From a bacterium (lineage in GTDB: Bacteria > UBA8248): a stretch of 64,000 nt of DNA. The stretch spans positions 7,805-71,804 of the forward strand of contig JAJDYR010000037.1 in assembly GCA_022825065.1 (NCBI GenBank). Direction: 5' to 3'. Below the pieces are notes generated by a model that was given only the letters and a program-made list of their open reading frames with translations, made no database searches and was not told the DNA's origin. The position numbers and the translations under genes are program-made. This document shows, in pieces, positions 12,930-26,434 of this stretch. The first letter of the stretch is position 1. Every line of letters begins with the position of its first letter.

Positions 12930-13376
12930 GGGCGCCCCGCTGTGTCGGGGACATATTTAGTATGGCGAAATCGAACCGTAACACTAAATGTAGTATGCTT
13001 TGCCCTCGTCTGTCAATACCCTAAAAACAGATATACACAAAATATATGAACTTACCCACACCTTATCCCCAAATGTTGTGTTTTCCTGTGGATAACCGGC
13101 GCAAGAAGAGAGCGGAGGGCTGAGACCCGCCCGGTTATCCCCCGCCGCCTCGTTTCCAGAAGCGGCGGCGCGCCCTTCATGGACGCTCCGGAGCGCCTGA
13201 ACCCGGAGGGCGCGGCCGCTGTCCGGCGCGCCGGTATCGCGTGAGAACGCCCGCAAAAACGCCTCGGATGCGCCCGGAAAGGCATCGTTAATTTATCGAA
13301 AAACCCCGTGAATTTATCTAATTATATCGAATTGTTTCAGCCTTTTTACCGATTTTTTCTCCTCAATCCCGACCGA

Positions 13377-13445
13377 TGAAGGAGGGATTGACGCGACTGG
13401 GGAAGGAGGGATTGACGCGACCAGGGAGGGAGGGATTGCAATTCC
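13377..13445. repeat. Three tandem 22-23-bp direct repeats GAAGGAGGGATTGACGCGAC(Y)(R)GG
   Basis: The sequence gaaggagggattgacgcgactgg / ggaaggagggattgacgcgacca / gggagggagggattgcaattcc. It is preceded by an inverted partner, AATCCC...GGGATT. Confidence 0.5.
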
Positions 13446-13834
13446 CCTGGGCGCGGAAGATCGCCCCCGCTCGACCCGGATCGTCTTCTCCATTTTCTCC
13501 CCTCCTTTCATCGCCGGGAACGATTTCTTTCCCGCGCGGAATTCTCGCCCATGCAGGCGAAAACCCGCTGACGGCAATTGCGGGGAGATGCGTGGTTCCC
13601 AGCGGCCGACCACATCGGCGCGCGCGCCGTCATCGTCCAGGCGCTCGATGAGGAGGCCGGAAATTTCTGCGAGCGCTTCGGCTTCCGCGCGTTCCCGGAT
13701 CGCGAGCCGCTCATGCTGCTGCTGAGGATATCGGATTTAAGGGACATGTTTTAGGGTAGGGCGTGCGCGGATTCGGAGATAGGCGGCTTGGCTCAAGGTT
13801 GGCTGAGCGATGGATTATCGCAGGTACGCTCCGC

Positions 13835-14182
13835 TCAGTCCTGCTCAAGGAGTACGGCCAGCTTTTCGAGCGTCTCGCCCACCACGCGCGGCGGAGCCTG
13901 CGACGCGAGGCGCACGCCTCTGGCGCGCCAGTCGAGGCTCTTCACTTGGTCGGCGAGAACCACGCCCGTAACGGGGCCATCGGTGGGGAGCGCCACCTCG
14001 AAGGGATAGCCCTTGACTCTCGAGGTGATGGGGCACAAGAGCGCGAGGCTGCTTTTCTCGTTATAGCTTCGCGGGCTGACGACCAGCGCGGGTCGGCGGC
14101 CAGTCTGCTCATGCCCGGCCTGGGGGGTGAAGGAAAGCCAGACGATGTCGCCTCTGCCCGGAACGAAGTCCGCGCCCGAAAC
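13835..14182 (-). CDS. mazF: Type II toxin MazF/PemK family endoribonuclease
   Basis: The C-terminal 115 aa of the 190-aa ORF align with E. coli MazF: VSGADFVPGRGDIVWLSFTPQAGHEQTGRRPALVVSP...GYPFEV...VLADQVKSLDWRARG. The likely start is GTG at 14182, so the Arg-rich N-terminal extension is probably not translated. Confidence 0.75.
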   Translation of the reverse strand, partial: VSGADFVPGRGDIVWLSFTPQAGHEQTGRRPALVVSPRSYNEKSSLALLCPITSRVKGYPFEVALPTDGPVTGVVLADQVKSLDWRARGVRLASQAPPRVVGETLEKLAVLLEQD

Positions 14183-14193
14183 CTCCCGTCTCG

Positions 14194-14433
14194 CTACCAC
14201 GCCTCTGCGCCCTGCGCCGGGCCGGCGTCCTGCTCGGCGTGCAGGTTGTCCGCGTTTATTTCGGCGAGCATGTCGGCCAGACGGTAGCCTCTTTTCCTCA
14301 TCACCACCCGGTCGCCGCGCGCGTTCATCTCGATGGCCGAACCCTCGCGCACGCCCCATTGCTCGGCGATGGGCTTCGGGATGCGGACGGCCAGGCTGTC
14401 CCCCCATTTCGCGATATGCGATTTCGCGCCCAT
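14194..14433 (-). CDS. mazE: Type II antitoxin MazE (AbrB/SpoVT fold)
   Basis: 79-aa protein beginning MGAKSHIAKWGDSLAVRIPKPIAEQWGV, which is the MazE/AbrB swapped-hairpin motif. It lies 11 nt upstream of mazF on the same strand. Confidence 0.75.
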   Translation of the reverse strand: MGAKSHIAKWGDSLAVRIPKPIAEQWGVREGSAIEMNARGDRVVMRKRGYRLADMLAEINADNLHAEQDAGPAQGAEAW

Positions 14434-14439
14434 GCGGTT

Positions 14440-14480
14440 ATCCTCCTATCAGGTGTTCATATCTATAATATATATCTTTT
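14440..14480 (-). promoter_or_regulatory. AT-rich alternating-purine/pyrimidine palindromic stretch upstream of mazE (candidate promoter/operator)
   Basis: The sequence catatctataatatatatctttt lies immediately 5' of the mazE start on the minus strand. MazE-MazF complexes are known to autoregulate through palindromic operators. Confidence 0.25.
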
Positions 14481-14582
14481 AGAGGGTGTTGTCGAGGGTG
14501 AGGGTCGGCTGCTCTTCAATACTACCAGCATGTTGATTATTACTCCCCCTTGAGGGGGCTGTTGAAAAAGTCCTCACATCTC

Positions 14583-14690
14583 CCTCATCCTGAGTAGCGG
14601 CGGAGCCGCGTATCGAAGGATGCCCTCTCGCACGCCGGGAGATGCCTCCCATCCTTCGATACGGCGCTTTCGCGCCTACTCAGGATGAGG
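14583..14690. repeat. 108-bp imperfect palindrome (long hairpin; MITE/REP-like)
   Basis: CCTCATCCTGAGTAGCGGCGGAGCCGCGTATCGAAGGATG ... CATCCTTCGATACGGCGCTTTCGCGCCTACTCAGGATGAGG. Confidence 0.5.
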
Positions 14691-14889
14691 TTTTGTGGCC
14701 ACCGGCGCGGCAGGAAGGAGGACCACCGCGTAACCCCCAATTCCGCCCGCGCCGAAACGGGCTTTTTAACAGCTCCGAGGAGGGGGGATTGCCGGAATCC
14801 GGAGCCGATGAATAGTGGAGAAATTTTAGCCCTTCTTTCTCTCAATGACTGAAAAGGAACGACAGCGAAAAAAGAAAAGGATAAATTCC

Positions 14890-14916
14890 CTGGATTCCGG
14901 CGTACGCCGGAATGAC
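14890..14916. repeat. Solo terminal inverted repeat of MITE family 2 (CTGGATTCCGGCGTACGCCGGAATGAC)
   Basis: It matches the right TIR of the complete family-2 copies at 21865-21993 and 26300-26434. A degraded partner (gggattgccggaatccgg) lies about 120 bp upstream. Confidence 0.4.
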
Positions 14917-14978
14917 GGCGAAGAACCACCGGGATAACACGCGGGCCTCGGCTGGTCTCACCGGCGCGCTTGGTGGAT

Positions 14979-15719
14979 TTATCCGTATGTTTCGTTCGTG
15001 CTAAATCGCACCGCTCTCGGCATCTCATCCCACGTTCTGTCGTCAAGCACACGCCCCGTTTTCTTCTTGAACACGCCGCCCCATTGCTTGAAGAAGAAGG
15101 GCGTGCTGCTGTTCACGCAGTTGTCGCGAATCTCCCTCACCCAGTCCGCCTCCATCGGCCTCGCGCCCGGCCCGGACTCACCGCCGACGACCACCCAGTC
15201 GACCCCCGTCAAATTCAAGGCCGGCAAGGGGCCGAGCAGGGGCTCCAAAGAGAGAAACTTCGTCCGCGCGCCGGTTGCCCTGAGCGGCGCCAGACGCCCG
15301 AGCCATTTTTCGGATTCCACGCTCGCGCCGAGCCAGATGTTGGGCGTCCAATTCAGCCTCCGCCCAAGCAGAGCGGCACGGCCCGGCCGCTTGGTGAGCA
15401 CCTGAAACGTGTGCCGGGTCGCGCGGTTCATCACGTCGAAAACGGACTCGATGAAACCGGACGGCACCGATTGATGAAACAGATCGGACATGGAATTGAC
15501 GAAGACGAGGCGCGGCTTCTTCCATCTCAAGGGTTCATCGAGCGAGGAATCGTGTGTGGCGACAGTGAAACCGTTCTCGTACTTCTCGATTCCCATGCCC
15601 TGGAGCCGTCTCGACATCCTCTCGGCGTAGCAATGCTTGCACCCAGGGCTTATCTTCGTACAGCCGGTAACCGGGTTCCAGGTCATCTCGGTCCATTCGA
15701 TACTCGAAATCGTGGACAT
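14979..15719 (-). CDS. DUF5131 / phage Gp37-Gp68 family three-Cys-motif protein
   Basis: The N-terminus WNPVTGCTKISPGCKHCYAE (CX6CX2C) and overall length of 246 aa fit the Gp37/Gp68 family. Regions such as WLGASVESEKW and FFFKQWGG are also present. Confidence 0.75.
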   Translation of the reverse strand: MSTISSIEWTEMTWNPVTGCTKISPGCKHCYAERMSRRLQGMGIEKYENGFTVATHDSSLDEPLRWKKPRLVFVNSMSDLFHQSVPSGFIESVFDVMNRATRHTFQVLTKRPGRAALLGRRLNWTPNIWLGASVESEKWLGRLAPLRATGARTKFLSLEPLLGPLPALNLTGVDWVVVGGESGPGARPMEADWVREIRDNCVNSSTPFFFKQWGGVFKKKTGRVLDDRTWDEMPRAVRFSTNETYG

Positions 15720-15735
15720 GTCTATATGTGTAGCC

Positions 15736-17070
15736 TCACCCGATCTTGAATCGCCAGCGCGCGGCGAGGGCGCTAAGGAGCAACAGACCGAGACTCAAGA
15801 ACGATTGAAGTCCGCCGACGAGGCGCAGGAGCGAGAAGGAAGTAGGTGAAGGTGGAATTTCAGGTGGAGATTTTCCGAGAAGCTGAAAAAGAGACGGGAG
15901 ATCAAAAGCGCCAAACGGGCTAATAATCTGTTCCAAGCTGAAACGAGAAGATAAAAGTAAAATTTCTGTACTTTCCAGACAATCTATTAGCAGCACATTG
16001 AAAAAATTCGCATAAATAGTCGCGAATAGCGCGAAAAAATACATCAGCCATATCAGTGGCCAGATAATGCTTTGTCCATAATCGGAGGCCAGTTCATAGA
16101 GTGACGAAAGGAATTTGATCAGCTTTCTATTTTCAGTGTGATATCTACTTTTCATCTCAAGGGCGTAGAACATCAATTGCTCTTGCCGCGCTCTTTTTTC
16201 CTCCATGTCCAGTTTTAGAGTTCGGTATGCACTAGCTGCTTCATTTCCTTGCCTATCCAAAAACTTGGCGTCAGTGAATTTTGTATCTTGATGAAGTCGA
16301 CAGCCATGAAAACGAGGCGCTTTGTGGAAAGTGCAATTCTTAAAGCTGGTTTCTTGCCGAAATTTCCGGTTGTCGAAGTTCGCTTCATCTAGAGATTTCG
16401 CACCAGAAAAATTAACCTCTCCTTTAAAAGCTTCCACTTCGTGATTTTTTCCTGAATTCTTAAAATCTACGTGCCATTCAAATTCGGCATTTCTAAAGTC
16501 AATCTTCCCTTCAAAATTGGAATCTGTAAAATCGACGAGGTCATTGAATTTAGTATTGCCGAAGATAGTAAGAGGACCCCTGAATTGGGCATGATTAAAC
16601 AAAGAATCTACTTTAAATTGTGCATGGGTGAATTTGACATTACTTGTGAAATGGGCATCACGGAAGTCCGCAGTATTATGGAATTGAGCATAGGAAAAAT
16701 CTACGAATGGGAATTCTATTCCTCTAAATTCGGGATAGCCTGGGAAAATAACGCCACTTAAATCTAATGTTCCGTACGGTGATGTTTCTAATATATTTCC
16801 CCGACGTCTTGAGATATCCGCATAAAACTCCTCTATTTTGTCAGGAGTCCATCCCCCCTTTGTCGTTAGATTGCCGTTTTCATCTTCAAGTGGCGCGTGG
16901 AAGGGGCACAATTTCTTGCCATCCACATCCATCAAATCACCTTCTTGAAAATCGGACGAAAACTGACACGGAATAATGACTACTGCTTTACCCGATTTTA
17001 CTGTTGTGCCTGCACACGGCATTCCGATTCTCCTCTCCGGGTCACTCAAACCGCCCAAAGAATGACGCAT
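15736..17070 (-). CDS. Pentapeptide-repeat protein with Cys-containing N-terminal region and C-terminal transmembrane helices
   Basis: More than 30 consecutive A(D/N)(L/F)xx-type pentapeptide repeats (AQFHNTADFRDAHFTSNVKFTHAQFKVDSLFNHAQFRG...). The C-terminus is hydrophobic (IIWPLIWLMYFFALFATIYANFF; LQSFLSLGLLLLSALAA). GC is roughly 40% in a 64% GC background. Confidence 0.7.
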   Translation of the reverse strand: MRHSLGGLSDPERRIGMPCAGTTVKSGKAVVIIPCQFSSDFQEGDLMDVDGKKLCPFHAPLEDENGNLTTKGGWTPDKIEEFYADISRRRGNILETSPYGTLDLSGVIFPGYPEFRGIEFPFVDFSYAQFHNTADFRDAHFTSNVKFTHAQFKVDSLFNHAQFRGPLTIFGNTKFNDLVDFTDSNFEGKIDFRNAEFEWHVDFKNSGKNHEVEAFKGEVNFSGAKSLDEANFDNRKFRQETSFKNCTFHKAPRFHGCRLHQDTKFTDAKFLDRQGNEAASAYRTLKLDMEEKRARQEQLMFYALEMKSRYHTENRKLIKFLSSLYELASDYGQSIIWPLIWLMYFFALFATIYANFFNVLLIDCLESTEILLLSSRFSLEQIISPFGAFDLPSLFQLLGKSPPEIPPSPTSFSLLRLVGGLQSFLSLGLLLLSALAARWRFKIG

Positions 17071-17149
17071 CTTGCAGTCTATCGTAAAGCGTTATTGGCC
17101 TCACCGGGGATTCATTTCTTCAAAAGAATGGAGTGGAAATTAGTACACA

Positions 17150-17407
17150 CTACAAACCCAAATCCTCGAACAACTCCTCGGCGCCATCGAAGTGCTTTCC
17201 CTTGCCTTCGTCCAACTCCTTCATCGCCTTGCGGGTGGCGGGGTTCGGCGCGCGGACGACGAAGGGCAGCCTACGCTCCTCCGCCACGCGCATCATGAGC
17301 AGGCGAATCGCATCGGAGACGGAAAGGCCCATCGCGTTCAAAGCTTCTGTGGCGCGGGCCTTGGTCTCGCTGTCGATTCTGGCGCGCACGACCGTATCGG
17401 TTGGCAT
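17150..17407 (-). CDS. dinJ: RelB/DinJ-family type II antitoxin (orphan)
   Basis: 85-aa protein MPTDTVVRARIDSETKARATEALNAMGLSVSDAIRLLMMRVAEERRLPF with the RHH/DinJ signature. No RelE/YafQ toxin ORF lies in the 79-nt gap downstream. Confidence 0.7.
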   Translation of the reverse strand: MPTDTVVRARIDSETKARATEALNAMGLSVSDAIRLLMMRVAEERRLPFVVRAPNPATRKAMKELDEGKGKHFDGAEELFEDLGL

Positions 17408-17499
17408 GTCATGCCCTCCTCTTACGTAGCCTCATTGTAGCTACAGCACCTTTTCTCTCTTGTCAAGACTGAATCCGAGTGGTTCTGTCTGAATTCCTC

Positions 17500-17625
17500 T
17501 CCCATTCGGCATCGGCGCGGAACCTGGGTCTAATGGGCGCGGTTTATCGCTTTTGGAACGCCTAATCCGAAGGAGAAAACATGGCGGCGTATGACGTGAC
17601 GGTTATCGGTGGTGGTTCCTACGAT
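17500..17625 (+). repeat. Left copy of a diverged ~115-bp direct repeat duplicating the lpdA upstream region and first 12 codons (partner at 20090-20215)
   Basis: cccattcggcatcggcgcggaacctgggtctaatgggcgcgg...aaggagaaaacATGGCGGCGTATGACGTGACGGTTATCGG is about 80% identical to the native lpdA 5' region. Confidence 0.7.
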
Positions 17626-17649
17626 TTGGTCCGGATCAAAGCGAGGTGA
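17581..17649 (+). pseudogene. Truncated duplicate of the lpdA 5' end (MAAYDVTVIGGGSYDLVRIKAR*)
   Basis: The first 12 codons match lpdA (MAAYDVAVIGGG), then the sequence diverges into a stop. Confidence 0.6.
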
Positions 17650-17882
17650 AGGAACTGCCATATCGAGGAGCGCCGTCGCCTCCTCGCGCCGGGCAAAACC
17701 GTATGGCAAACGCTCGTCAAAGAACGCATCAAATACTGAGGATGAATTCGTCCTTGTACATGGTGAAGTGAACTTCCGAAAGAAAATCCATGCCGAGCAA
17801 TAGGTCAAAATTAGGGAATTATATACGAAAGTGCCGAAGTCTCATTTTCATCTTTGCTATTAACAATGCGAAAGCGTTGCTT

Positions 17883-18044
17883 TCAAGGCTTTTCCACATA
17901 CTCGACATTTACAGATTTCGTTGGTGCTTCTACTGCTTGATCAAAAGTTGCGTCTATTCGTAAGTCTGATTCCAATTCAGATTTACTTGGCTGATAACTA
18001 GGTTTTACAATTTTAATCGTAGATTTCTCCTTTTTATCTGTCAT
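17883..18044 (-). CDS. Small hypothetical protein (53 aa) at the distal end of the low-GC insertion operon
   Basis: ATG start with a GGGAG RBS. Product MTDKKEKSTIKIVKPSYQPSKSELESDLRIDATFDQAVEAPTKSVNVEYVEKP. Below the ORF-track size cut-off. Confidence 0.2.
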   Translation of the reverse strand: MTDKKEKSTIKIVKPSYQPSKSELESDLRIDATFDQAVEAPTKSVNVEYVEKP

Positions 18045-18124
18045 TATTTTCTCCCATCTCTTTACTAAGGAGGTTAGGGAAGGTCGCTTACGATGAACGT
18101 AGGCGACCTTCCCTAACCTCTACT

Positions 18125-18745
18125 TCAACGATACATCCTCTTCAGTATCTCCGCATCGATGGGCGGAAGCGTATCGCCAGTATGCCGTACGGCAAACCTA
18201 TGATTCATCACAGACTTTGGGAATGATTCATGTTCTACATGACCCTGTATGCCGAGGGCATGGAGGAGTTCATGTAGAGCCATAGTCCATAAAAAATCTG
18301 TTTGCTCTTTCGCGTAAGTGTCTGCGATGTAGATTGTGCTGGATTTAGTGTGGCCGCTATCAAAGTCGAGTATGCTGTCAGCGCAGCCGAATCTTTCACC
18401 TGCACAGTCATCACTAAAAGTGTCTCCGTGTTGCACTAACTTAACGATGATGCTGACTTCTTGGTCAAATTTCACTGTACGAATTTTGTGCTCTGGTGGA
18501 AGTTCTTTGTTGACCAGTGTTATAGCACGGGCTATAGCCGTCGCCGCATTCTCTGCGGTCGTATCTTTAGCTTTCAAACGTTTGATAAAATCTATATCGA
18601 ATGTAAGTGTCGGCTCTTTCGCATGGGGGTAAAGGCCGCCGTTTAAGGCGGACTGTTCCACCTGTGCGATATACGTAGCTATAGGTGTGGTGGCGTTACA
18701 AGCAGTAATTAATGCCGCTAATAGAATGCTAAAAATGATGAGCAT
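18125..18745 (-). CDS. Lipoprotein with metzincin-type zinc-peptidase motif (HExxHxxGxxH)
   Basis: Signal peptide plus lipobox MLIIFSILLAALITAC. The motif ALHELLHALGIQGHVEH is present near the C-terminus. Low GC. Confidence 0.5.
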   Translation of the reverse strand: MLIIFSILLAALITACNATTPIATYIAQVEQSALNGGLYPHAKEPTLTFDIDFIKRLKAKDTTAENAATAIARAITLVNKELPPEHKIRTVKFDQEVSIIVKLVQHGDTFSDDCAGERFGCADSILDFDSGHTKSSTIYIADTYAKEQTDFLWTMALHELLHALGIQGHVEHESFPKSVMNHRFAVRHTGDTLPPIDAEILKRMYR

Positions 18746-18748
18746 GTC

Positions 18749-19120
18749 TCATAACCTTTTTCTTCTTGACTTAGAATGTCTTTTCTGCTTTTTCCAAAAA
18801 TCACCTAAAGCCTCAAAATATCTCCCTGTATTACGAACACAAAGATCGTCAGGATGTGCCGAAGGAGCAAAATTTGCTAGAGTTTTATCAAGTAATGTCC
18901 ATGATCCAGTTTTCCTCGAACTATAAATGAGAATATCTGGCTCTGGTTCACCGTTTTCAGTATAAAGCTTCATCATGAGTGTTTGCTTTTTTACATGTTC
19001 CATATATTGCTTCATCTCATTTTCAGATAAACATAACATCAATCTTCCTTGAGAAAAGTTATTGTCAAAAACAATTATCAAGCCAATTAGGACAACAAAA
19101 ACTATCAGCACTTTCTTCAT
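18749..19120 (-). CDS. Small membrane-anchored hypothetical protein
   Basis: N-terminal TM helix MKKVLIVFVVLIGLIIVF, then a basic C-terminus. Low GC, with a 3-nt gap to the downstream gene. Confidence 0.4.
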   Translation of the reverse strand: MKKVLIVFVVLIGLIIVFDNNFSQGRLMLCLSENEMKQYMEHVKKQTLMMKLYTENGEPEPDILIYSSRKTGSWTLLDKTLANFAPSAHPDDLCVRNTGRYFEALGDFWKKQKRHSKSRRKRL

Positions 19121-19172
19121 GTAAAATCCCTCTTGGAGAATAACGATGCCTGTTATTTTAATTGCCTATGAC

Positions 19173-19595
19173 CTAAATCATGAATCTCCATCTGATAGCC
19201 CGCGAATGGCAGATATTATTAATATATAATTCCCCAAAATTATTGGGCTGGAACGGAAGCAGGGAAACTTCAATTTCCTTGCCTCGCAGATTGAGCCATG
19301 GGCCGGCTCCTCCCCCCGATGTCTCCAGTTGATCTCCAATCGGGATATCGACCCTGACCCTGTATTTTTCCGTTTGGATTGGATCCCCGCTGACGGGGAT
19401 GATATCGGTAAAACCGATGCTGGACAGTTTCCCTTCATCGACCACCTTCTGAGATATCATGGTGCCTTGCGCGCCCGTATCCAGTATTGCCGGATAAGAT
19501 TTGGGCTTTGTCCGCGCCGACGGCGGGCTCCCGATCGAAATGGCGGCAAACAGGCGGATTTCCCTGTTTTCCACCCGCCCTCGAAACGTAGGCAT
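19173..19595 (-). CDS. Retropepsin-like (clan AA) aspartic protease
   Basis: 140-aa protein with the catalytic motif AILDTGAQGTMIS (DTGA) and a C-terminal hydrophobic motif as in bacterial retropepsin-like proteins. Confidence 0.6.
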   Translation of the reverse strand: MPTFRGRVENREIRLFAAISIGSPPSARTKPKSYPAILDTGAQGTMISQKVVDEGKLSSIGFTDIIPVSGDPIQTEKYRVRVDIPIGDQLETSGGGAGPWLNLRGKEIEVSLLPFQPNNFGELYINNICHSRAIRWRFMI

Positions 19596-19612
19596 TCAGG
19601 GTTTTGTCGACT

Positions 19613-19888
19613 TCAGGATTTGGGTAGGCACATGGTGAAAACGCCGAGAGATATCGGCGGTTCACCAATTTTTTCGATTGAAAAATTTCCGAGACCGAAT
19701 TTCTCACAACCTATCGCATATGCGTCACCGCTATCGTCATAAATCTCAACAATTTCTCCGTCATGGAGCAATGCCGCCCTTCCGAAGTGTTCGGCCTCCA
19801 TTTCTTCCTTTATGGCGTTGTACGCAGCCCGGTTCTTGTGAAGCTGTGAGTTCATCTTCCTACCCTCCCGCAAGCAGGCGAATCTCAA
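19613..19888 (-). CDS. Small hypothetical protein, first gene of the low-GC insertion operon
   Basis: 91-aa ORF (possible internal start MNSQLHK...), 17 nt upstream of the protease gene. Region ...AALLHDGEIVEIYDDSGDAYAIGCEKFG... Confidence 0.35.
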   Translation of the reverse strand: MRFACLREGRKMNSQLHKNRAAYNAIKEEMEAEHFGRAALLHDGEIVEIYDDSGDAYAIGCEKFGLGNFSIEKIGEPPISLGVFTMCLPKS

Positions 19889-20089
19889 CTGCCAAGGGGC
19901 TAAAAATCATGGCACATATTGAGCCGGATGTTAAGTCTGTAAATATGGATGACTGCCCCGGTCGCCAGGGGCAAGCGCCAATGCCCGCCGGAATCATCAG
20001 CATCCCAAAACGTAAAGCCTCCATCAGAACGCAGCCACTCCCGCCAGCCCCCGCTCCAGGCAAACCCCGCTTCACCACCCCAACCCCTC

Positions 20090-20215
20090 CCCCCATTTGG
20101 CATGAGCGCGGAACCTTGGTCTAATGGGCGCGGTTTTGTTCGTGGAGCGCCTTACCCGAAGGAGGAAGCATGGCGGCGTATGACGTGGCGGTTATCGGCG
20201 GCGGCCCTGCGGGCT
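20090..20215 (+). repeat. Right copy of the ~115-bp direct repeat (native lpdA 5' region)
   Basis: ccccatttggcatgagcgcggaaccttggtctaatgggcgcgg...aaggaggaagcATGGCGGCGTATGACGTGGCGGTTATCGG. Confidence 0.7.
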
Positions 20216-21576
20216 ACGTGGCGGGCGTGCGCGTGGCCCAGAGCGGGGGCAGCTGTGTGGTCATCGAGCGCGGCGAGCTGGGCGGCACCTGCCTGAACTG
20301 GGGCTGCATCCCCAGCAAGAGCCTCATCGCCGCGGCGGAAGTCTACCGGAACATCAAGAACGCGGACGCCTACGGCATCGAAGTCACGGGAGAGGTGCGC
20401 GCCGACCTGGCCGCCATGGTCGAGCGCAAGGACAAGATTGTCGCAGGCCTGGTAAGGGGAATCGGCGGGCTGTTCAAGGCCCACGGGGTGGCCCACATGG
20501 CGGGCGAGGCCGAGATTCTGGAGATGGGCAAGATTTCCGTGCTCGGAAAAGACGGCGAGTACGAGGTGGTCGAGGCCGATAAGATCATCATCGCCACGGG
20601 TTCCCGGCCCGCGCAGATTCCCGCCTTTCCCATCGACGGCGAAAAAATCATCTCCTCCGAGCAGGCCGTGCACTTGAAGAATCTTCCCGAGCGGGTGCTC
20701 ATCGTGGGCGCCGGCGTCATCGGCTGTGAGTTCGCGTGTCTCTATAGAGAGCTGGGGGCGGAGGTCACAATGGTGGAACTGCTCGACCGCGTCCTGCCGC
20801 TGGGGGATGAGGACGTCTCGAAACTCATGGCGCGTGAACTCAGAAAACAGAAGATCAAGGTGCGTCTTGGTGAGGAGATAACGGGCGTCTCGCGCAAGCG
20901 AGGGGAGTTGGTCGCCGAATTCGAGGGTTCGGATGATGAGGAGCGCGCGGAACTGGTGCTCGTCTCCGTGGGCCGGACGATGAACACCGACGGCCTGGGT
21001 CTGGAGCGAATCGGCGTGGAACTCGGGCCGCGCGGCGAGATCAAGGTGAACGATTTGATGGAGACGAACGCCCCCGGCGTCTATGCGGCGGGCGACGTGG
21101 TGGGCGAGCCCATGCTCGCGCACGTGGCTTCCGCCGAGGGAATTGCCGCGGCGGAAAACGCCATGGGCGCGGAGATACGGATGGATTACCGCGCGATTCC
21201 GGCGGGCATCTTCACCCATCCCGAGATCGGCGTCGTCGGCATGGCCGAGCACGAGGCGGAGAAGGCGGGGCACGCGGTGCGCGTGGGCAAGTTCTCCGTC
21301 CGCGCTCTCGGCAAGGCGCAGGCCGAACGCGCGTTGGAGGGAGAGGTGAAGGTGATCGCCGACGCGGGGGATGACGCCATCCTTGGCGTTCACATCGTGG
21401 GCGCGCATGCCGCCGACATCGTGCACGAGGCCGCCGTCGCCATGCAGCACCGCGTCACCGCCTCGGACCTGGCCGGCACCATGCACTCCCACCCCACGCT
21501 CTCGGAAGCCGTCATGGAGGCGGCATTGGACGTCCACGGCGAGGCCATCCACGCGCCGCCCAAGAAACGTTCGTAA
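20170..21576 (+). CDS. lpdA: Dihydrolipoyl dehydrogenase (E3 component)
   Basis: FAD-binding GGGPAGY, redox-active disulfide GGTCLNWGCIPSK, NAD-binding VIVGAGVIGCEFA, and the C-terminal HAHPTLSE interface motif. Confidence 0.9.
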   Translation: MAAYDVAVIGGGPAGYVAGVRVAQSGGSCVVIERGELGGTCLNWGCIPSKSLIAAAEVYRNIKNADAYGIEVTGEVRADLAAMVERKDKIVAGLVRGIGGLFKAHGVAHMAGEAEILEMGKISVLGKDGEYEVVEADKIIIATGSRPAQIPAFPIDGEKIISSEQAVHLKNLPERVLIVGAGVIGCEFACLYRELGAEVTMVELLDRVLPLGDEDVSKLMARELRKQKIKVRLGEEITGVSRKRGELVAEFEGSDDEERAELVLVSVGRTMNTDGLGLERIGVELGPRGEIKVNDLMETNAPGVYAAGDVVGEPMLAHVASAEGIAAAENAMGAEIRMDYRAIPAGIFTHPEIGVVGMAEHEAEKAGHAVRVGKFSVRALGKAQAERALEGEVKVIADAGDDAILGVHIVGAHAADIVHEAAVAMQHRVTASDLAGTMHSHPTLSEAVMEAALDVHGEAIHAPPKKRS

Positions 21577-21610
21577 GAGGTTGTTGGAAAAGCCTCCTTG
21601 TCAGGGGATA

Positions 21611-21760
21611 AAGGCAACCCCCCCTACCCCCCCTTGACAGGGGGGTAAAAAAAGAAAACCCCACTGACAAAGGCGCAAGAAAAAACAAGAGCCCCCCTAC
21701 CGGCGGTGGGTGTCGCCTTTTCATACCCCCCTGTCAAGGGGGGGTAGGGGGGGTTGCCTT
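21611..21760. mobile_element. MITE-like element, family 1 (poly-C/G TIRs GGCAACCCCCCCTACCCCCCCTTGACAGGGGGG)
   Basis: Perfect ~35-bp terminal inverted repeats flank a ~75-bp core. No ORF. A second copy lies at 48409-48530. Confidence 0.6.
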
Positions 21761-21864
21761 TCAGGGCGAGAGGCTGCGGCTCGTGTTCCGCCGGCGAAAA
21801 AACAGGGACGCATGTATGCGTCCCCTACACGAAAATCCTCCGTTCACAGAGGAGGTCTTTGGTC

Positions 21865-21993
21865 GTCATTCCGGCGTATGCCGGAATCCAGGGACTTTGT
21901 TTTTGAATTTGCCTTTTCGCTTTATCGTTTTTCTTGGCCTTCCTGCGATTCGGTATCCCCGTCTGCTCTGGATTCCGGCATGCGCCGGAATGA
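21865..21993. mobile_element. MITE-like element, family 2 (TIR GTCATTCCGGCGTATGCCGGAATCCAG)
   Basis: 27-bp TIRs, each itself containing a palindrome (CCGGCG.A.GCCGGAAT), flank ~75 bp. A second copy is at 26300-26434 and a solo TIR at 14890-14916. Confidence 0.6.
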
Positions 21994-26299: not shown

Positions 26300-26434
26300 G
26301 TCATTCCGGCGAAAGCCGGAATCCATTTTACGCCTTTTGTCTTTCGTCGGGGTTCCTGCGCATCGGCGGGGGACGAAACGCCGCCGTTCTTCCACCCGCA
26401 CCCGCAAATGGATTCCGGCTTTCGCCGGAATGAC
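26300..26434. mobile_element. MITE-like element, family 2 (second complete copy)
   Basis: GTCATTCCGGCGAAAGCCGGAATCCATTT ... AAATGGATTCCGGCTTTCGCCGGAATGAC, preceded at 26222-26250 by a family-3 GGGGCTGTTGAAAAGTCCCCC motif. Confidence 0.6.

What the first reader, a model, noticed from the sequence alone, without database searches (positions are those of the whole stretch)
17500..20215. A 2.4-kb low-GC insertion flanked by diverged 115-bp direct repeats that duplicate the lpdA promoter and first 12 codons
The segment 17500-17625 is ~80% identical to 20090-20215, which is the native upstream region plus start of lpdA: the left copy reads ATGGCGGCGTATGACGTGACGGTTATCGG and the native gene ATGGCGGCGTATGACGTGGCGGTTATCGG. 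The left copy decays into a stop after 22 codons. Between the repeats lies a block at roughly 40-45% GC, against ~64% for the window, encoding a five-gene minus-strand operon. Direct repeats bracketing compositionally foreign DNA indicate a site-specific or recombinational insertion next to lpdA. No integrase or transposase is present, so the mobilisation mechanism is unclear.
Basis: seen in the sequence. Interest (0 to 1): 0.55.

Follow-up and report, generated by a model that had tools for sequence, protein, structure and literature searches.

The report
Relic lpdA-leader duplication plus nested transposon
The repeats and the foreign DNA are real, but this is not one island: it is an old two-gene module left beside a decaying spare copy of the lpdA leader in a recombination hotspot, later split by a small transposase-less transposon that supplies the low GC; interesting anatomy, ordinary biology.

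Summary
w17494-17625 and w20085-20215 are direct repeats, 84-87% identical. They are present in two independent assemblies and in closed chromosomes of relatives.

1. The low-GC core, w17814-19234 (1,421 bp, 40% GC), is a separate, recent transposition. It has perfect 12-bp terminal inverted repeats (GGGAATTATATA) and an 8-bp target duplication (CAAAATTA). It has no transposase and carries three cargo ORFs. Relatives keep the unoccupied target. The insertion splits a retropepsin-like protease gene; removing it in silico restores the 145-aa ORF.

2. The remaining ~0.9 kb is a portable two-gene module: a small unknown protein plus the protease. It also occurs at unrelated loci and in another phylum.

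3. The left repeat is a relic. In six genomes it ends at the same breakpoint (lpdA codons ~13-15 joined to the module's 3' flank). It diverges at spacer rate, and its short ORF is not conserved.

4. All of this lies in a hypervariable interval between the ribonucleotide reductase gene and lpdA, 0.6-7.9 kb across relatives. Several relatives have relB directly next to lpdA.

The likeliest origin of the duplication is a homology-anchored insertion with one illegitimate junction; this step is inferred. It is a new member of known kinds, of modest interest.

The parts
17494..17625 (+). Left copy: a relic of the lpdA leader plus the first ~13-15 codons of lpdA. In this genome it is joined on its left to the relB upstream region and on its right to the 3' flank of the protease module.
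   Evidence: The same 3' breakpoint is seen in the window, L003, L015, L009, L011 and L085. It diverges at spacer rate. Its short ORF is not conserved.
20085..20215 (+). Right copy: the working lpdA leader and start. The core/accessory boundary lies at about w20085.
   Evidence: It is 90-95% conserved upstream of lpdA in L003-L019. Homology to every relative stops at w20078-20096.
20170..21576 (+). lpdA (dihydrolipoyl dehydrogenase), intact, 468 aa.
   Evidence: Precomputed Pfam hits Pyr_redox_2 and Pyr_redox_dim. 80-97% identical orthologues in 18 related MAGs.
17626..17813 (-). Left part of the old two-gene module. It holds the module's 3' flank (w17626-17728), then the displaced last 25 codons and stop of the protease gene (stop at w17729-17731), up to the left target duplication.
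   Evidence: Removing w17814-19242 restores a 145-aa ORF identical in length to the L003 protein. The 3' flank travels with the module at a non-lpdA locus, L086/L087.
17806..17813 (.). Left copy of the 8-bp target-site duplication CAAAATTA.
   Evidence: L003, L015 and L007 have a single CAAAATT[A/T] at this point.
17814..19234 (.). Nested non-autonomous transposon, resembling a mobile insertion cassette: 1,421 bp, 40.4% GC, perfect 12-bp terminal inverted repeats GGGAATTATATA at w17814-17825 and w19223-19234.
   Evidence: The inverted-repeat sequence occurs only at these two places in the window (expected 0.07). The element is absent from all relatives. Unoccupied target sites are shown. No protein-family hit to a transposase.
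17883..18044 (-). Cargo ORF o53 (53 aa, hydrophilic, no family).
   Evidence: It was also called as a gene in the second-sample contig L073.
18070..18120 (.). Strong hairpin with 23-nt arms, just after the o206 stop codon. Probably a terminator or processing signal.
   Evidence: pair I9; dG -43.9 kcal/mol, z = -7.9. It is 83% identical to a hairpin after a distant homologue's gene.
18125..18745 (-). Cargo ORF o206: predicted lipoprotein with a metzincin-like zinc-protease motif (HELLHALGIQGH plus a conserved Met).
   Evidence: Pfam Matrixin 22.9 bits, just under the cut-off of 24. Apart from one 98%-identical sequence from the same population, only remote homologues (<=39% identity) in 1.84 billion representatives. 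H158, E159, H162, G165, G168 and H169 are invariant and M180 is nearly invariant across homologues. The lipobox LITAC was read from the sequence.
18749..19120 (-). Cargo ORF o123 (123 aa, hydrophobic N-terminus, no family).
19235..19242 (.). Right copy of the 8-bp target-site duplication CAAAATTA.
19173..19595 (-). Disrupted retropepsin-like aspartic protease gene (AspP). Residues 1-120 are native (w19236-19595). The last 20 residues and the stop are read from the transposon end.
   Evidence: The intact 145-aa orthologue in L003 passes the Pfam cut-offs for gag-asp_proteas, Asp_protease_2 and RVP_2.
19613..19888 (-). o91: small conserved protein of unknown function (80 aa from the ATG at w19855). 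It is the upstream partner of AspP.
   Evidence: 81 homologue clusters with no family assignment. It sits next to an AspP homologue in L003, L085, L087 and L080, and next to a disrupted one in L083.
19889..20084 (.). Module promoter region (to about w19960), then a C-rich spacer. The part w20011-20084 is also found upstream of the left copy in L085.
17150..17407 (-). relB/dinJ-type antitoxin gene. It is the ancestral left neighbour of the lpdA leader. No toxin gene follows it here.
   Evidence: Pfam RelB 72.5 bits. relB-leader-lpdA is contiguous in ten relatives.
13334..20084 (.). The whole hypervariable interval between the ribonucleotide reductase gene and lpdA. It holds MazEF, DUF5131, the pentapeptide-repeat protein, relB, and the structures above.
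   Evidence: Core homology ends at w13333-13340 on one side and w20078-20096 on the other in most relatives. In L013 the two boundaries lie about 60 bp apart.

Best explanation
Three layers of history sit on top of each other at the lpdA-proximal edge of a recombination hotspot.

Layer 1, shown. The interval between the ribonucleotide-reductase gene and lpdA is a hypervariable slot. Related genomes fill it with different small modules: MazEF, DUF5131 with or without TcmP, relB with a pentapeptide-repeat protein, and o91 with AspP. Its right edge is sharp, about 85 bp upstream of the lpdA ATG.

Layer 2, structure shown and mechanism inferred. Once, in an ancestor, the portable o91-AspP module became joined by an illegitimate junction to lpdA codons ~13-15. 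A second, intact copy of the lpdA leader and start was kept on the other side of the module. The likeliest route is recombination anchored by homology in lpdA on one side, with a non-homologous join on the other side. This could be homology-facilitated illegitimate recombination, or equivalently single-crossover integration of a circularised fragment that carried the leader. The left copy then became useless and has been decaying as neutral DNA. Later homologous exchanges, using either leader copy or the neighbouring genes as anchors, reshuffled what lies to the left of the relic and what lies between the two copies.

Layer 3, shown. Recently, and in this lineage only, a 1,421-bp element without a transposase inserted into the 3' end of AspP. 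It has 12-bp terminal inverted repeats and made an 8-bp target duplication. It carries a predicted secreted metzincin-like lipoprotein and two small ORFs. It must have been moved in trans by a transposase encoded elsewhere. This element is what makes the region look strongly low in GC.
For: Layer 1.
- The distance from the reductase start to the lpdA ATG ranges from 616 bp (L013) to 7,870 bp (L015), and is 7,241 bp here.
- Module content differs genome by genome.
- Homology to the relatives breaks at w13097-13340 and at w20078-20096.

Layer 2.
- All six left copies (window, L003, L015, L009, L011, L085) end at the same point...GGNGGNG|(T/A)TCCTNCGAYTTGG..., where lpdA sequence gives way to the module's 3' flank. 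Five of them group together in a neighbour-joining tree.
- That 3' flank belongs to the module. It accompanies the module at a locus with no lpdA (L086/L087, 77% identity over w17625-17809).
- Between the window and L003, the left copy is 85.6% identical, like the adjacent spacers (87.5% and 87.3%). The right copy is 95.5% and lpdA is 94.6%.
- The short ORF starting in the left copy ends at different places in each genome.
- L085's left copy also keeps about 75 bp that in the window lie only upstream of the right copy. The original duplication was therefore at least ~205 bp.
- Module addition anchored by a conserved flank, leaving orphaned remnants behind, has been proposed for Vibrio T6SS immunity arrays and Rhs loci (PMC5361080).

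Layer 3.
- Alignments with L003, L015 and L007 show ...GTCAAAATT[A/T]TTGGGCTGG... uninterrupted where the window has CAAAATTA-GGGAATTATATA...TATATAATTCCC-CAAAATTA.
- The 12-mer occurs only at those two positions, in inverted orientation.
- In-silico excision restores a 145-aa AspP ORF.
- The same insertion is found in a second sample at 98.6% identity.
- No transposase domain was found in its ORFs.
- The structure fits the published definition of a mobile insertion cassette (PMC3913671).
Against: - The mechanism of the old duplication cannot be read from the sequence. A candidate CCTGCG microhomology at the junction is only suggestive, because the donor sequence is unknown and the non-lpdA copy (L086) is diverged there.
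- Genomes with the duplication are scattered on the lpdA and aminotransferase trees. One origin therefore requires several later losses or lateral exchange.
- L085's left copy lacks the T-to-C change shared by the other left copies.
- No second copy of the nested element and no IS with matching ends was found. Its assignment as a transposase-mobilised cassette rests on the inverted repeats, the target duplication and the unoccupied sites alone. The search was limited to the window and 87 fetched loci.
- Only 10 ORFs outside w10-31 kb were screened for recombinases.
Confidence: 0.75

Rival explanations
1. A single 2.4-kb foreign island integrated site-specifically at the 5' end of lpdA. The 115-bp direct repeats would be attL and attR, the island having brought a replacement lpdA start with it. 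The integrase would since have been lost or would act in trans.
For: Direct repeats bracket accessory DNA, and relatives have an unoccupied relB-lpdA junction. Integrative elements that restore the end of their target gene are well known (established knowledge).
Against: - The segment is composite. L003, L015 and L085 have the repeats without the low-GC core.
- No recombinase was found among the genes called over w10-31 kb or among 10 further ORFs screened.
- The bracketed content differs among genomes.
- The o91-AspP module occurs without the repeats in L007, L084, L086 and L080.
- The left copy evolves like spacer DNA.
- The left end of the repeat is simply the core/accessory boundary shared by all genomes, not a site specific to an element.
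Confidence: 0.04
2. Local tandem duplication. In an ancestor arranged AspP-o91-relB-leader-lpdA (as in L007 or L085), the unit from the AspP 3' flank to lpdA codon ~15 was duplicated in tandem, for example by unequal sister-chromatid exchange or replication slippage. Different lineages then lost different redundant parts. No foreign DNA entered at that step.
For: - L011 has two relB copies, one on each side of the left copy.
- L085 keeps relB between the module and the right copy.
- In the window, L015 and L011 the left copy is preceded by relB, as this model predicts.
- A single breakpoint is also expected under this model.
Against: - It does not explain the two unrelated kinds of sequence found to the left of the leader: the relB type, and the w20011-20084 type. 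These are swapped between the copies in the window and in L085. Extra recombination with other alleles is needed in any case.
- No genome retains two copies of the module.
Confidence: 0.18
3. Assembly artefact. The repeat or the low-GC block would be a chimeric join or a mis-collapsed repeat in a metagenome scaffold.
For: The window comes from a metagenome scaffold. Short repeats and foreign-GC segments are typical places for mis-joins.
Against: - An independent Logan assembly is identical over 6.9 kb spanning both repeats.
- A second sample reproduces the left junction of the nested element.
- Chromosome-scale assemblies of three related species show the same two-copy arrangement.
- The inverted repeats, the target duplication and the exact restoration of the ORF are biological signatures, not errors.
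Confidence: 0.01

Closest known systems
Mobile insertion cassettes (MIC231 of Bacillus cereus; the qnrD and qnrS2 cassettes) and other transposase-less, cargo-carrying IS derivatives
   Same: The element is bracketed by terminal inverted repeats, has a target-site duplication, has no transposase gene, is 1-2 kb long, and carries passenger genes with their own expression signals (definition in PMC3913671). MIC231A1 also carries a peptidase gene (same paper).
   Different: The cognate IS and transposase are unknown. The inverted repeats are only 12 bp. Only one insertion site is known. The host is an uncultured Nitrospinota-affiliated bacterium. The cargo has no close relatives apart from a 98%-identical copy from the same population.
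Module accretion that leaves orphaned anchor fragments in T6SS effector-immunity arrays, Rhs loci and CDI loci (proposed homology-facilitated illegitimate recombination)
   Same: A conserved flank serves as the anchor. New modules are added next to it. A displaced partial copy of the conserved sequence is left behind as a scar. Content is mosaic among close relatives (PMC5361080).
   Different: Here the anchor is the promoter and 5' end of a housekeeping gene, not a toxin core. The modules are of toxin-antitoxin or defence type. Only one scar is seen per genome. The mechanism is inferred, not demonstrated.
Chromosomal hotspots (regions of genomic plasticity, defence islands) between conserved core genes
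   Same: The boundaries in the flanking core genes are sharp. The size range is large and includes an essentially empty state. The region is rich in toxin-antitoxin and candidate defence genes (MazEF, RelB, DUF5131/TcmP).
   Different: There is no integrase or tRNA gene at the hotspot. The modules are very small, one to two genes each.
Integrative elements that duplicate the end of their target gene (attL/attR inside tRNA or protein-coding genes)
   Same: Direct repeats contain a gene terminus, and the gene stays intact after the insertion.
   Different: No recombinase is present. The repeats are diverged with no preserved core. The bracketed content is variable. The module also exists without the repeats.

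Membership tests
Mobile insertion cassette / non-autonomous IS-derived element | Terminal inverted repeats at both ends | tested here: met
   Perfect 12-bp GGGAATTATATA at w17814-17825 and, inverted, at w19223-19234. These are the only two matches in the window, against 0.07 expected.
Mobile insertion cassette / non-autonomous IS-derived element | Target-site duplication, with an unoccupied site elsewhere | tested here: met
   8-bp CAAAATTA at w17806-17813 and w19235-19242. L003, L015 and L007 have a single copy and a continuous AspP gene.
Mobile insertion cassette / non-autonomous IS-derived element | No transposase gene inside; passenger genes instead | tested here: met
   Three ORFs of 53, 206 and 123 aa. 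There are no transposase hits in Pfam, NCBIfam, PHROGs or PADLOC. o206 is metzincin-like.
Mobile insertion cassette / non-autonomous IS-derived element | A cognate IS with matching ends whose transposase acts in trans | not testable with these tools
   The rest of the genome is not available. The 12-mer is absent from the other fetched loci. It is too short for the collection scans, which need at least 14 specified bases.
Mobile insertion cassette / non-autonomous IS-derived element | Copies at more than one site (evidence of repeated mobility) | tested here: not met
   Only this site was found, in two samples of one population.
Site-specific integrative island with att repeats | A tyrosine or serine recombinase in or next to the element | tested here: not met
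   None among the ORFs between the repeats, among the genes called over w10-31 kb, or among 10 further ORFs. The rest of the window was not screened.
Site-specific integrative island with att repeats | The repeats mark the ends of one unit that is present or absent as a whole | tested here: not met
   The content between the copies varies among genomes. The module is also found without the repeats.
Site-specific integrative island with att repeats | A conserved identical core within the repeats | tested here: inconclusive
   The longest identical run between the two copies is about 19 nt. The left copy diverges at spacer rate, so no core is being preserved.
Product of homology-facilitated illegitimate recombination | One flank homologous to the recipient (the anchor) | tested here: met
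   The right copy and lpdA are conserved in every relative, and the boundary is sharp at about w20085.
Product of homology-facilitated illegitimate recombination | The other junction is non-homologous, usually at a short microhomology | tested here: inconclusive
   The junction of lpdA codons ~13-15 with the module flank is shared by six genomes. A possible CCTGCG overlap exists, but the donor sequence is unknown.
Product of homology-facilitated illegitimate recombination | DNA uptake and RecA-dependent integration shown in the host | not testable with these tools
   The organism is uncultured.
Integron gene cassette | IntI integrase, attI site and attC sites | tested here: not met
   No integrase was found. 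No inverted repeat lies within either repeat copy, so neither looks like an imperfect attC palindrome.
Retropepsin-like (clan AA) aspartic protease (AspP) | D-T/S-G active-site motif and a Pfam score above the cut-off | tested here: met
   The motif LDTGAQ is present. The intact L003 orthologue scores 30.8, 28.6 and 24.7 bits against cut-offs of 28.2, 24.3 and 20.3. The window copy is truncated and falls below the cut-offs.
Metzincin zinc metalloprotease (o206) | HExxHxxGxxH motif plus a Met-turn | tested here: inconclusive
   The motif here is HELLHALGIQGH, with one extra residue before the third His. The motif residues are invariant and Met180 is nearly invariant among homologues. Pfam Matrixin scores 22.9 against a cut-off of 24. 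The AF2 model is unusable (pLDDT 42).

The most novel reading that the evidence does not exclude
The edge of the lpdA leader may be a growth zone where small toxin-antitoxin or defence-type modules are repeatedly captured by one-sided homology. Each capture would be able to leave a 'leader scar'. The scars in turn would provide portable homology for excising, swapping or re-inserting modules between related sponge-associated bacteria. This would be a recombinase-free, cassette-array-like system built on a housekeeping promoter. The nested element would be the first member of an undescribed family of cargo-carrying inverted-repeat elements in this lineage.
Probability: 0.2. Interest if true: 0.5.

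Novelty: new member of a known kind. Interest (0 to 1): 0.3.

Why it matters
This is a clean example of how a feature that looks like one foreign island with att repeats can be three unrelated events stacked on each other: a hotspot, a relic anchor duplication, and a nested transposon.

For annotating these uncultured Nitrospinota-type genomes it gives four things:
- exact boundaries for a new transposase-less transposable cassette;
- the finding that the protease gene here is a pseudogene;
- a recurrent uncharacterised two-gene module (a small protein plus a retropepsin-like protease) that moves between loci and phyla;
- a well-defined hypervariable slot that could be mined for toxin-antitoxin and defence modules.

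It does not reveal a new mechanism.

Tried and rejected
- AlphaFold of o206 from a single sequence gave pLDDT 42, which is unusable, so no fold search was run on it.
- The AlphaFold model of o91 was good (pLDDT 82), but Foldseek against the PDB gave nothing below E = 0.9. A profile search of PDB sequences gave only noise.
- Rfam over w13000-23000 gave no credible RNA family, and nothing at the repeats.
- PHROGs gave no hits for any of the five ORFs. PADLOC gave only weak partial hits of AspP to candidate PDC-M08B.
- The sigma-70 scan did not call a promoter in either repeat copy. My by-eye TTGGCA-17-TCTAAT fails the scan's rule of an A at position 2 of the -10 box. I therefore call the repeat 'leader', not 'promoter'.
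- I looked for a conserved o123-o206 gene pair. The 122-aa gene upstream of the 39%-identical o206 homologue (L076-L078) is unrelated to o123.
- The word-indexed protein search found only one near-identical o206 homologue. Its contig shows the same insertion site, not a second site.
- I ran no further search on the element ends. The 12-bp inverted repeat is below the 14-base minimum, and a longer probe would only recover the same copy.
- I considered an integron-like attC reading and a Xer/dif-type reading of the repeats. I rejected both because there is no palindromic structure and no recombinase.
- I considered that the left copy drives an antisense transcript against the module. This is disfavoured because the left copy diverges at neutral rate.

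Full report
**Source and relatives**

The window is part of a metagenome scaffold (ENA ERZ23491646, KELL22-1_SAMN22237329 scaffold_301, 104.5 kb). Its LpdA protein is 80-97% identical to proteins of about 18 MAGs, including chromosome-scale assemblies. Several of their record titles name 'Nitrospinota bacterium'. These genomes supplied all the comparisons below. More were fetched through homologues of the small protein o91.

**The observation**

The repeat is real.
- w17501-17545 vs 20092-20136 is 91% identical, and w17554-17615 vs 20143-20204 is 87% identical.
- Over about 115 bp, blastn gives 84% identity and E = 7e-29.
- A 30-nt core occurs nowhere else in the window.
- The left copy includes ATG plus codons homologous to lpdA up to about codon 13-15, and stops after 22 codons.

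The structure is not an assembly artefact.
- An independent Logan assembly is identical across w14692-21622.
- A contig from a second sample crosses one internal junction.
- Three related chromosome-scale assemblies have the same two-copy layout.

**The 2.4 kb is composite**

L003 (LpdA 97% identical) and L015 carry both repeat copies. Between them they have only the equivalents of w17616-17812 and w19235-20090. The missing 1.4 kb is therefore a later, nested insertion, and its ends are textbook.
- L003, L015 and L007 read ...GCAATACGTCAAAATT[A/T]TTGGGCTGGAACGG... without interruption.
- The window reads ...GCAATAGGT-CAAAATTA-GGGAATTATATACG...TATATAATTCCC-CAAAATTA-TTGGGCTGG....

So there is an 8-bp target duplication (w17806-17813 and w19235-19242). 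There are also perfect 12-bp terminal inverted repeats (w17814-17825 and w19223-19234). That 12-mer has only these two matches in 64 kb, against 0.07 expected.

The element is 1,421 bp and 40.4% GC. It supplies most of the compositional anomaly, since the older flanking parts are 50-54% GC.

It sits inside a gene.
- The intact orthologue in L003 is a 145-aa retropepsin-like aspartic protease, which passes three Pfam cut-offs.
- In the window only residues 1-120 are native. The displaced last 25 codons and the stop still lie 1.4 kb away at w17729-17806.
- Deleting the element and one duplication copy in silico restores a 145-aa ORF.

Its three ORFs include no transposase.
- o123 has a hydrophobic N-terminus.
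- o206 has a lipoprotein-type signal (LITAC) and an HELLHALGIQGH motif that, together with a downstream Met, is conserved across homologues. It scores just under the Pfam Matrixin cut-off. Apart from one 98%-identical sequence from the same population, it has only remote homologues (<=39% identity) among 1.84 billion representative proteins.
- o53 has no family.

This fits the published definition of a mobile insertion cassette: inverted repeats, target duplication, no transposase, passenger genes (PMC3913671). The same insertion, 98.6% identical, is present in a second sample. No other site and no matching IS were found.

**The older module**

What remains after removing the cassette is a unit of about 0.9 kb. 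It consists of a 3' flank, AspP, o91 and the o91 promoter region, roughly w17621-19960.

It is a discrete, portable module.
- With the same 3' flank it sits at a locus unrelated to lpdA, among Fic-domain genes (L086/L087, 77-85% identity).
- In L007 and L084 it lies to the left of relB with no repeat next to it.
- An o91 homologue followed by a 46%-identical AspP homologue occurs in a Bryobacterales MAG (L080).

o91 belongs to a family of 81 clusters with no Pfam, NCBIfam, PHROG or PADLOC assignment. Its AlphaFold model is confident (pLDDT 82) but has no neighbour in the PDB. The function of the pair is unknown, and I do not claim it is a toxin-antitoxin system.

**The left repeat is a relic of one ancient junction**

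Left copies exist in the window, L003, L015, L009, L011 and L085.
- All six end at the same place. lpdA sequence (...ATCGGNGGNG) gives way to the module's 3' flank (...TCCTNCGAYTTGGNC-GGATCAAAGCGAGG...).
- Five of them cluster together in a neighbour-joining tree, on long branches.
- Between the window and L003 the left copy is 85.6% identical. This matches the neighbouring spacers (87.5% and 87.3%). The right copy is 95.5% and lpdA is 94.6%. The comparison with L015 gives 78.9% for the left copy and 80.4% for the 3'-flank spacer.
- The short ORF that starts in the left copy ends at a different point in each genome.

The left copy is therefore not being maintained as an attachment site, a promoter or a coding sequence.

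L085's left copy also retains about 75 bp that in the window lie only upstream of the right copy (w20011-20084). The original duplication was thus at least ~205 bp.

**Context: a hotspot**

Homology to the relatives stops at about w13333 on the reductase side and at about w20085 on the lpdA side.
- In L013 these two boundaries are about 60 bp apart, and the whole intergenic distance is 616 bp.
- In the other genomes the interval is 2.4-7.9 kb, and here it is 7.2 kb.
- It is filled with different combinations of MazEF, DUF5131 (with TcmP in L003), a low-GC pentapeptide-repeat membrane protein, relB and the o91-AspP module.

relB runs directly into the lpdA leader in L004, L007, L008, L009, L010, L012, L014, L016, L017 and L084.

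What lies between the two leader copies differs among genomes:
- the module only (window, L003, and L015 with an extra ~0.4 kb);
- the module plus a truncated yafQ and relB (L085);
- o91 plus the pentapeptide gene plus relB (L009);
- o91, other DNA and a second relB (L011).

What lies to the left of the relic also differs: relB (window, L015, L011), TcmP (L003), or the w20011-20084-type spacer (L085).

The genomes with the duplication are scattered on the lpdA and aminotransferase trees. This fits loss by recombination between the direct repeats, exchange between lineages, or both.

**Mechanism**

Shown:
- the hotspot;
- the single shared breakpoint;
- the neutral decay of the left copy;
- the portability of the module;
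- the transposition signature of the cassette.

Inferred: how the breakpoint arose. The simplest route is a recombination event anchored by homology in lpdA on one side and closed by a non-homologous join on the other. This could be homology-facilitated illegitimate recombination, or equivalently single-crossover integration of a circularised fragment carrying the leader. The same idea has been proposed for the build-up of orphan immunity arrays and Rhs 'orphan' fragments (PMC5361080). A possible CCTGCG microhomology at the junction is only suggestive.

A purely local tandem duplication followed by differential deletion is a serious alternative (about 0.18). It explains the two relB copies in L011. 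It does not by itself explain the two unrelated kinds of sequence found to the left of the leader.

Site-specific integration (about 0.04) and assembly artefact (about 0.01) are effectively excluded.

**Verdict**

Interest is modest (0.3). The most useful by-products are the exact cassette boundaries and the uncharacterised o91-AspP module.

Noticed in passing
window 19613-19888 (-) with 19173-19595 (-); also L003 8986-9716, L085 5001-5698, L087 779-1476, L080 4001-4702: o91 is a widespread small-protein family: 81 clusters, 13 invariant residues including a Y-x-D-x-G-D-A-Y core. It has no family assignment and no PDB fold neighbour despite a confident model. It sits directly upstream of a retropepsin-like protease in different loci and phyla. 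This is an uncharacterised two-gene module that lives in toxin-antitoxin and defence-rich islands. AspP gives weak hits to PADLOC candidate PDC-M08B.
   Followed up: partly
window 17150-17407 (relB) and 15736-17070 (pentapeptide-repeat membrane protein, 42.9% GC): relB has no toxin gene here. The next gene downstream is a low-GC pentapeptide-repeat protein of 428-575 aa. The pair is conserved in L004, L009, L012, L014, L015, L016 and L017. L007 keeps a truncated YafQ toxin fragment after relB (Pfam YafQ_toxin, 46 bits). This may be an orphan antitoxin, or an antitoxin with a new partner.
   Followed up: partly
window 18070-18120; L076 806-852, L077 2901-2947: A 23-bp-arm hairpin (dG -43.9 kcal/mol, z = -7.9) immediately follows the o206 stop codon. 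It is about 83% identical to a hairpin in the same position after a homologue that is only 39% identical, in unrelated contigs. The hairpin is better conserved than the gene it follows.
   Followed up: partly
window 14894-14913, 21868-21887, 21972-21991, 26303-26322, 26412-26431; inverted repeat 21610-21654 / 21717-21761: A REP-like palindrome, ATTCCGGCRTRCGCCGGAAT, recurs five times (0 expected). A 45-nt-arm inverted repeat, 96% complementary, lies just after lpdA. Pieces of both are 90-100% identical at different positions in L084 and L085, which suggests small mobile palindromic elements.
   Followed up: partly
window 14979-15719 (-); L003 6866-8538: The DUF5131 (Gp37/Gp68-like) protein hits PADLOC candidate defence models PDC-M41B and PDC-M30B at E ~1e-110. 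In L003 it is paired with a TcmP 'three-Cys-motif partner' protein that is absent from the window.
   Followed up: no
window 13370-13441: Three tandem 24-bp units (CGACCGATGAAGGAGGGATTGACG, 71-100% identical) lie just inside the reductase-side boundary of the variable interval.
   Followed up: no
window 19145-19228 (+): By-eye reading: a 27-codon ORF (MPVILIAYDLNHESPSDSPRMADIINI*) runs into the right inverted repeat of the cassette. It may be the stump of a gene, which could hint at how the cassette was derived. Not tested.
   Followed up: no
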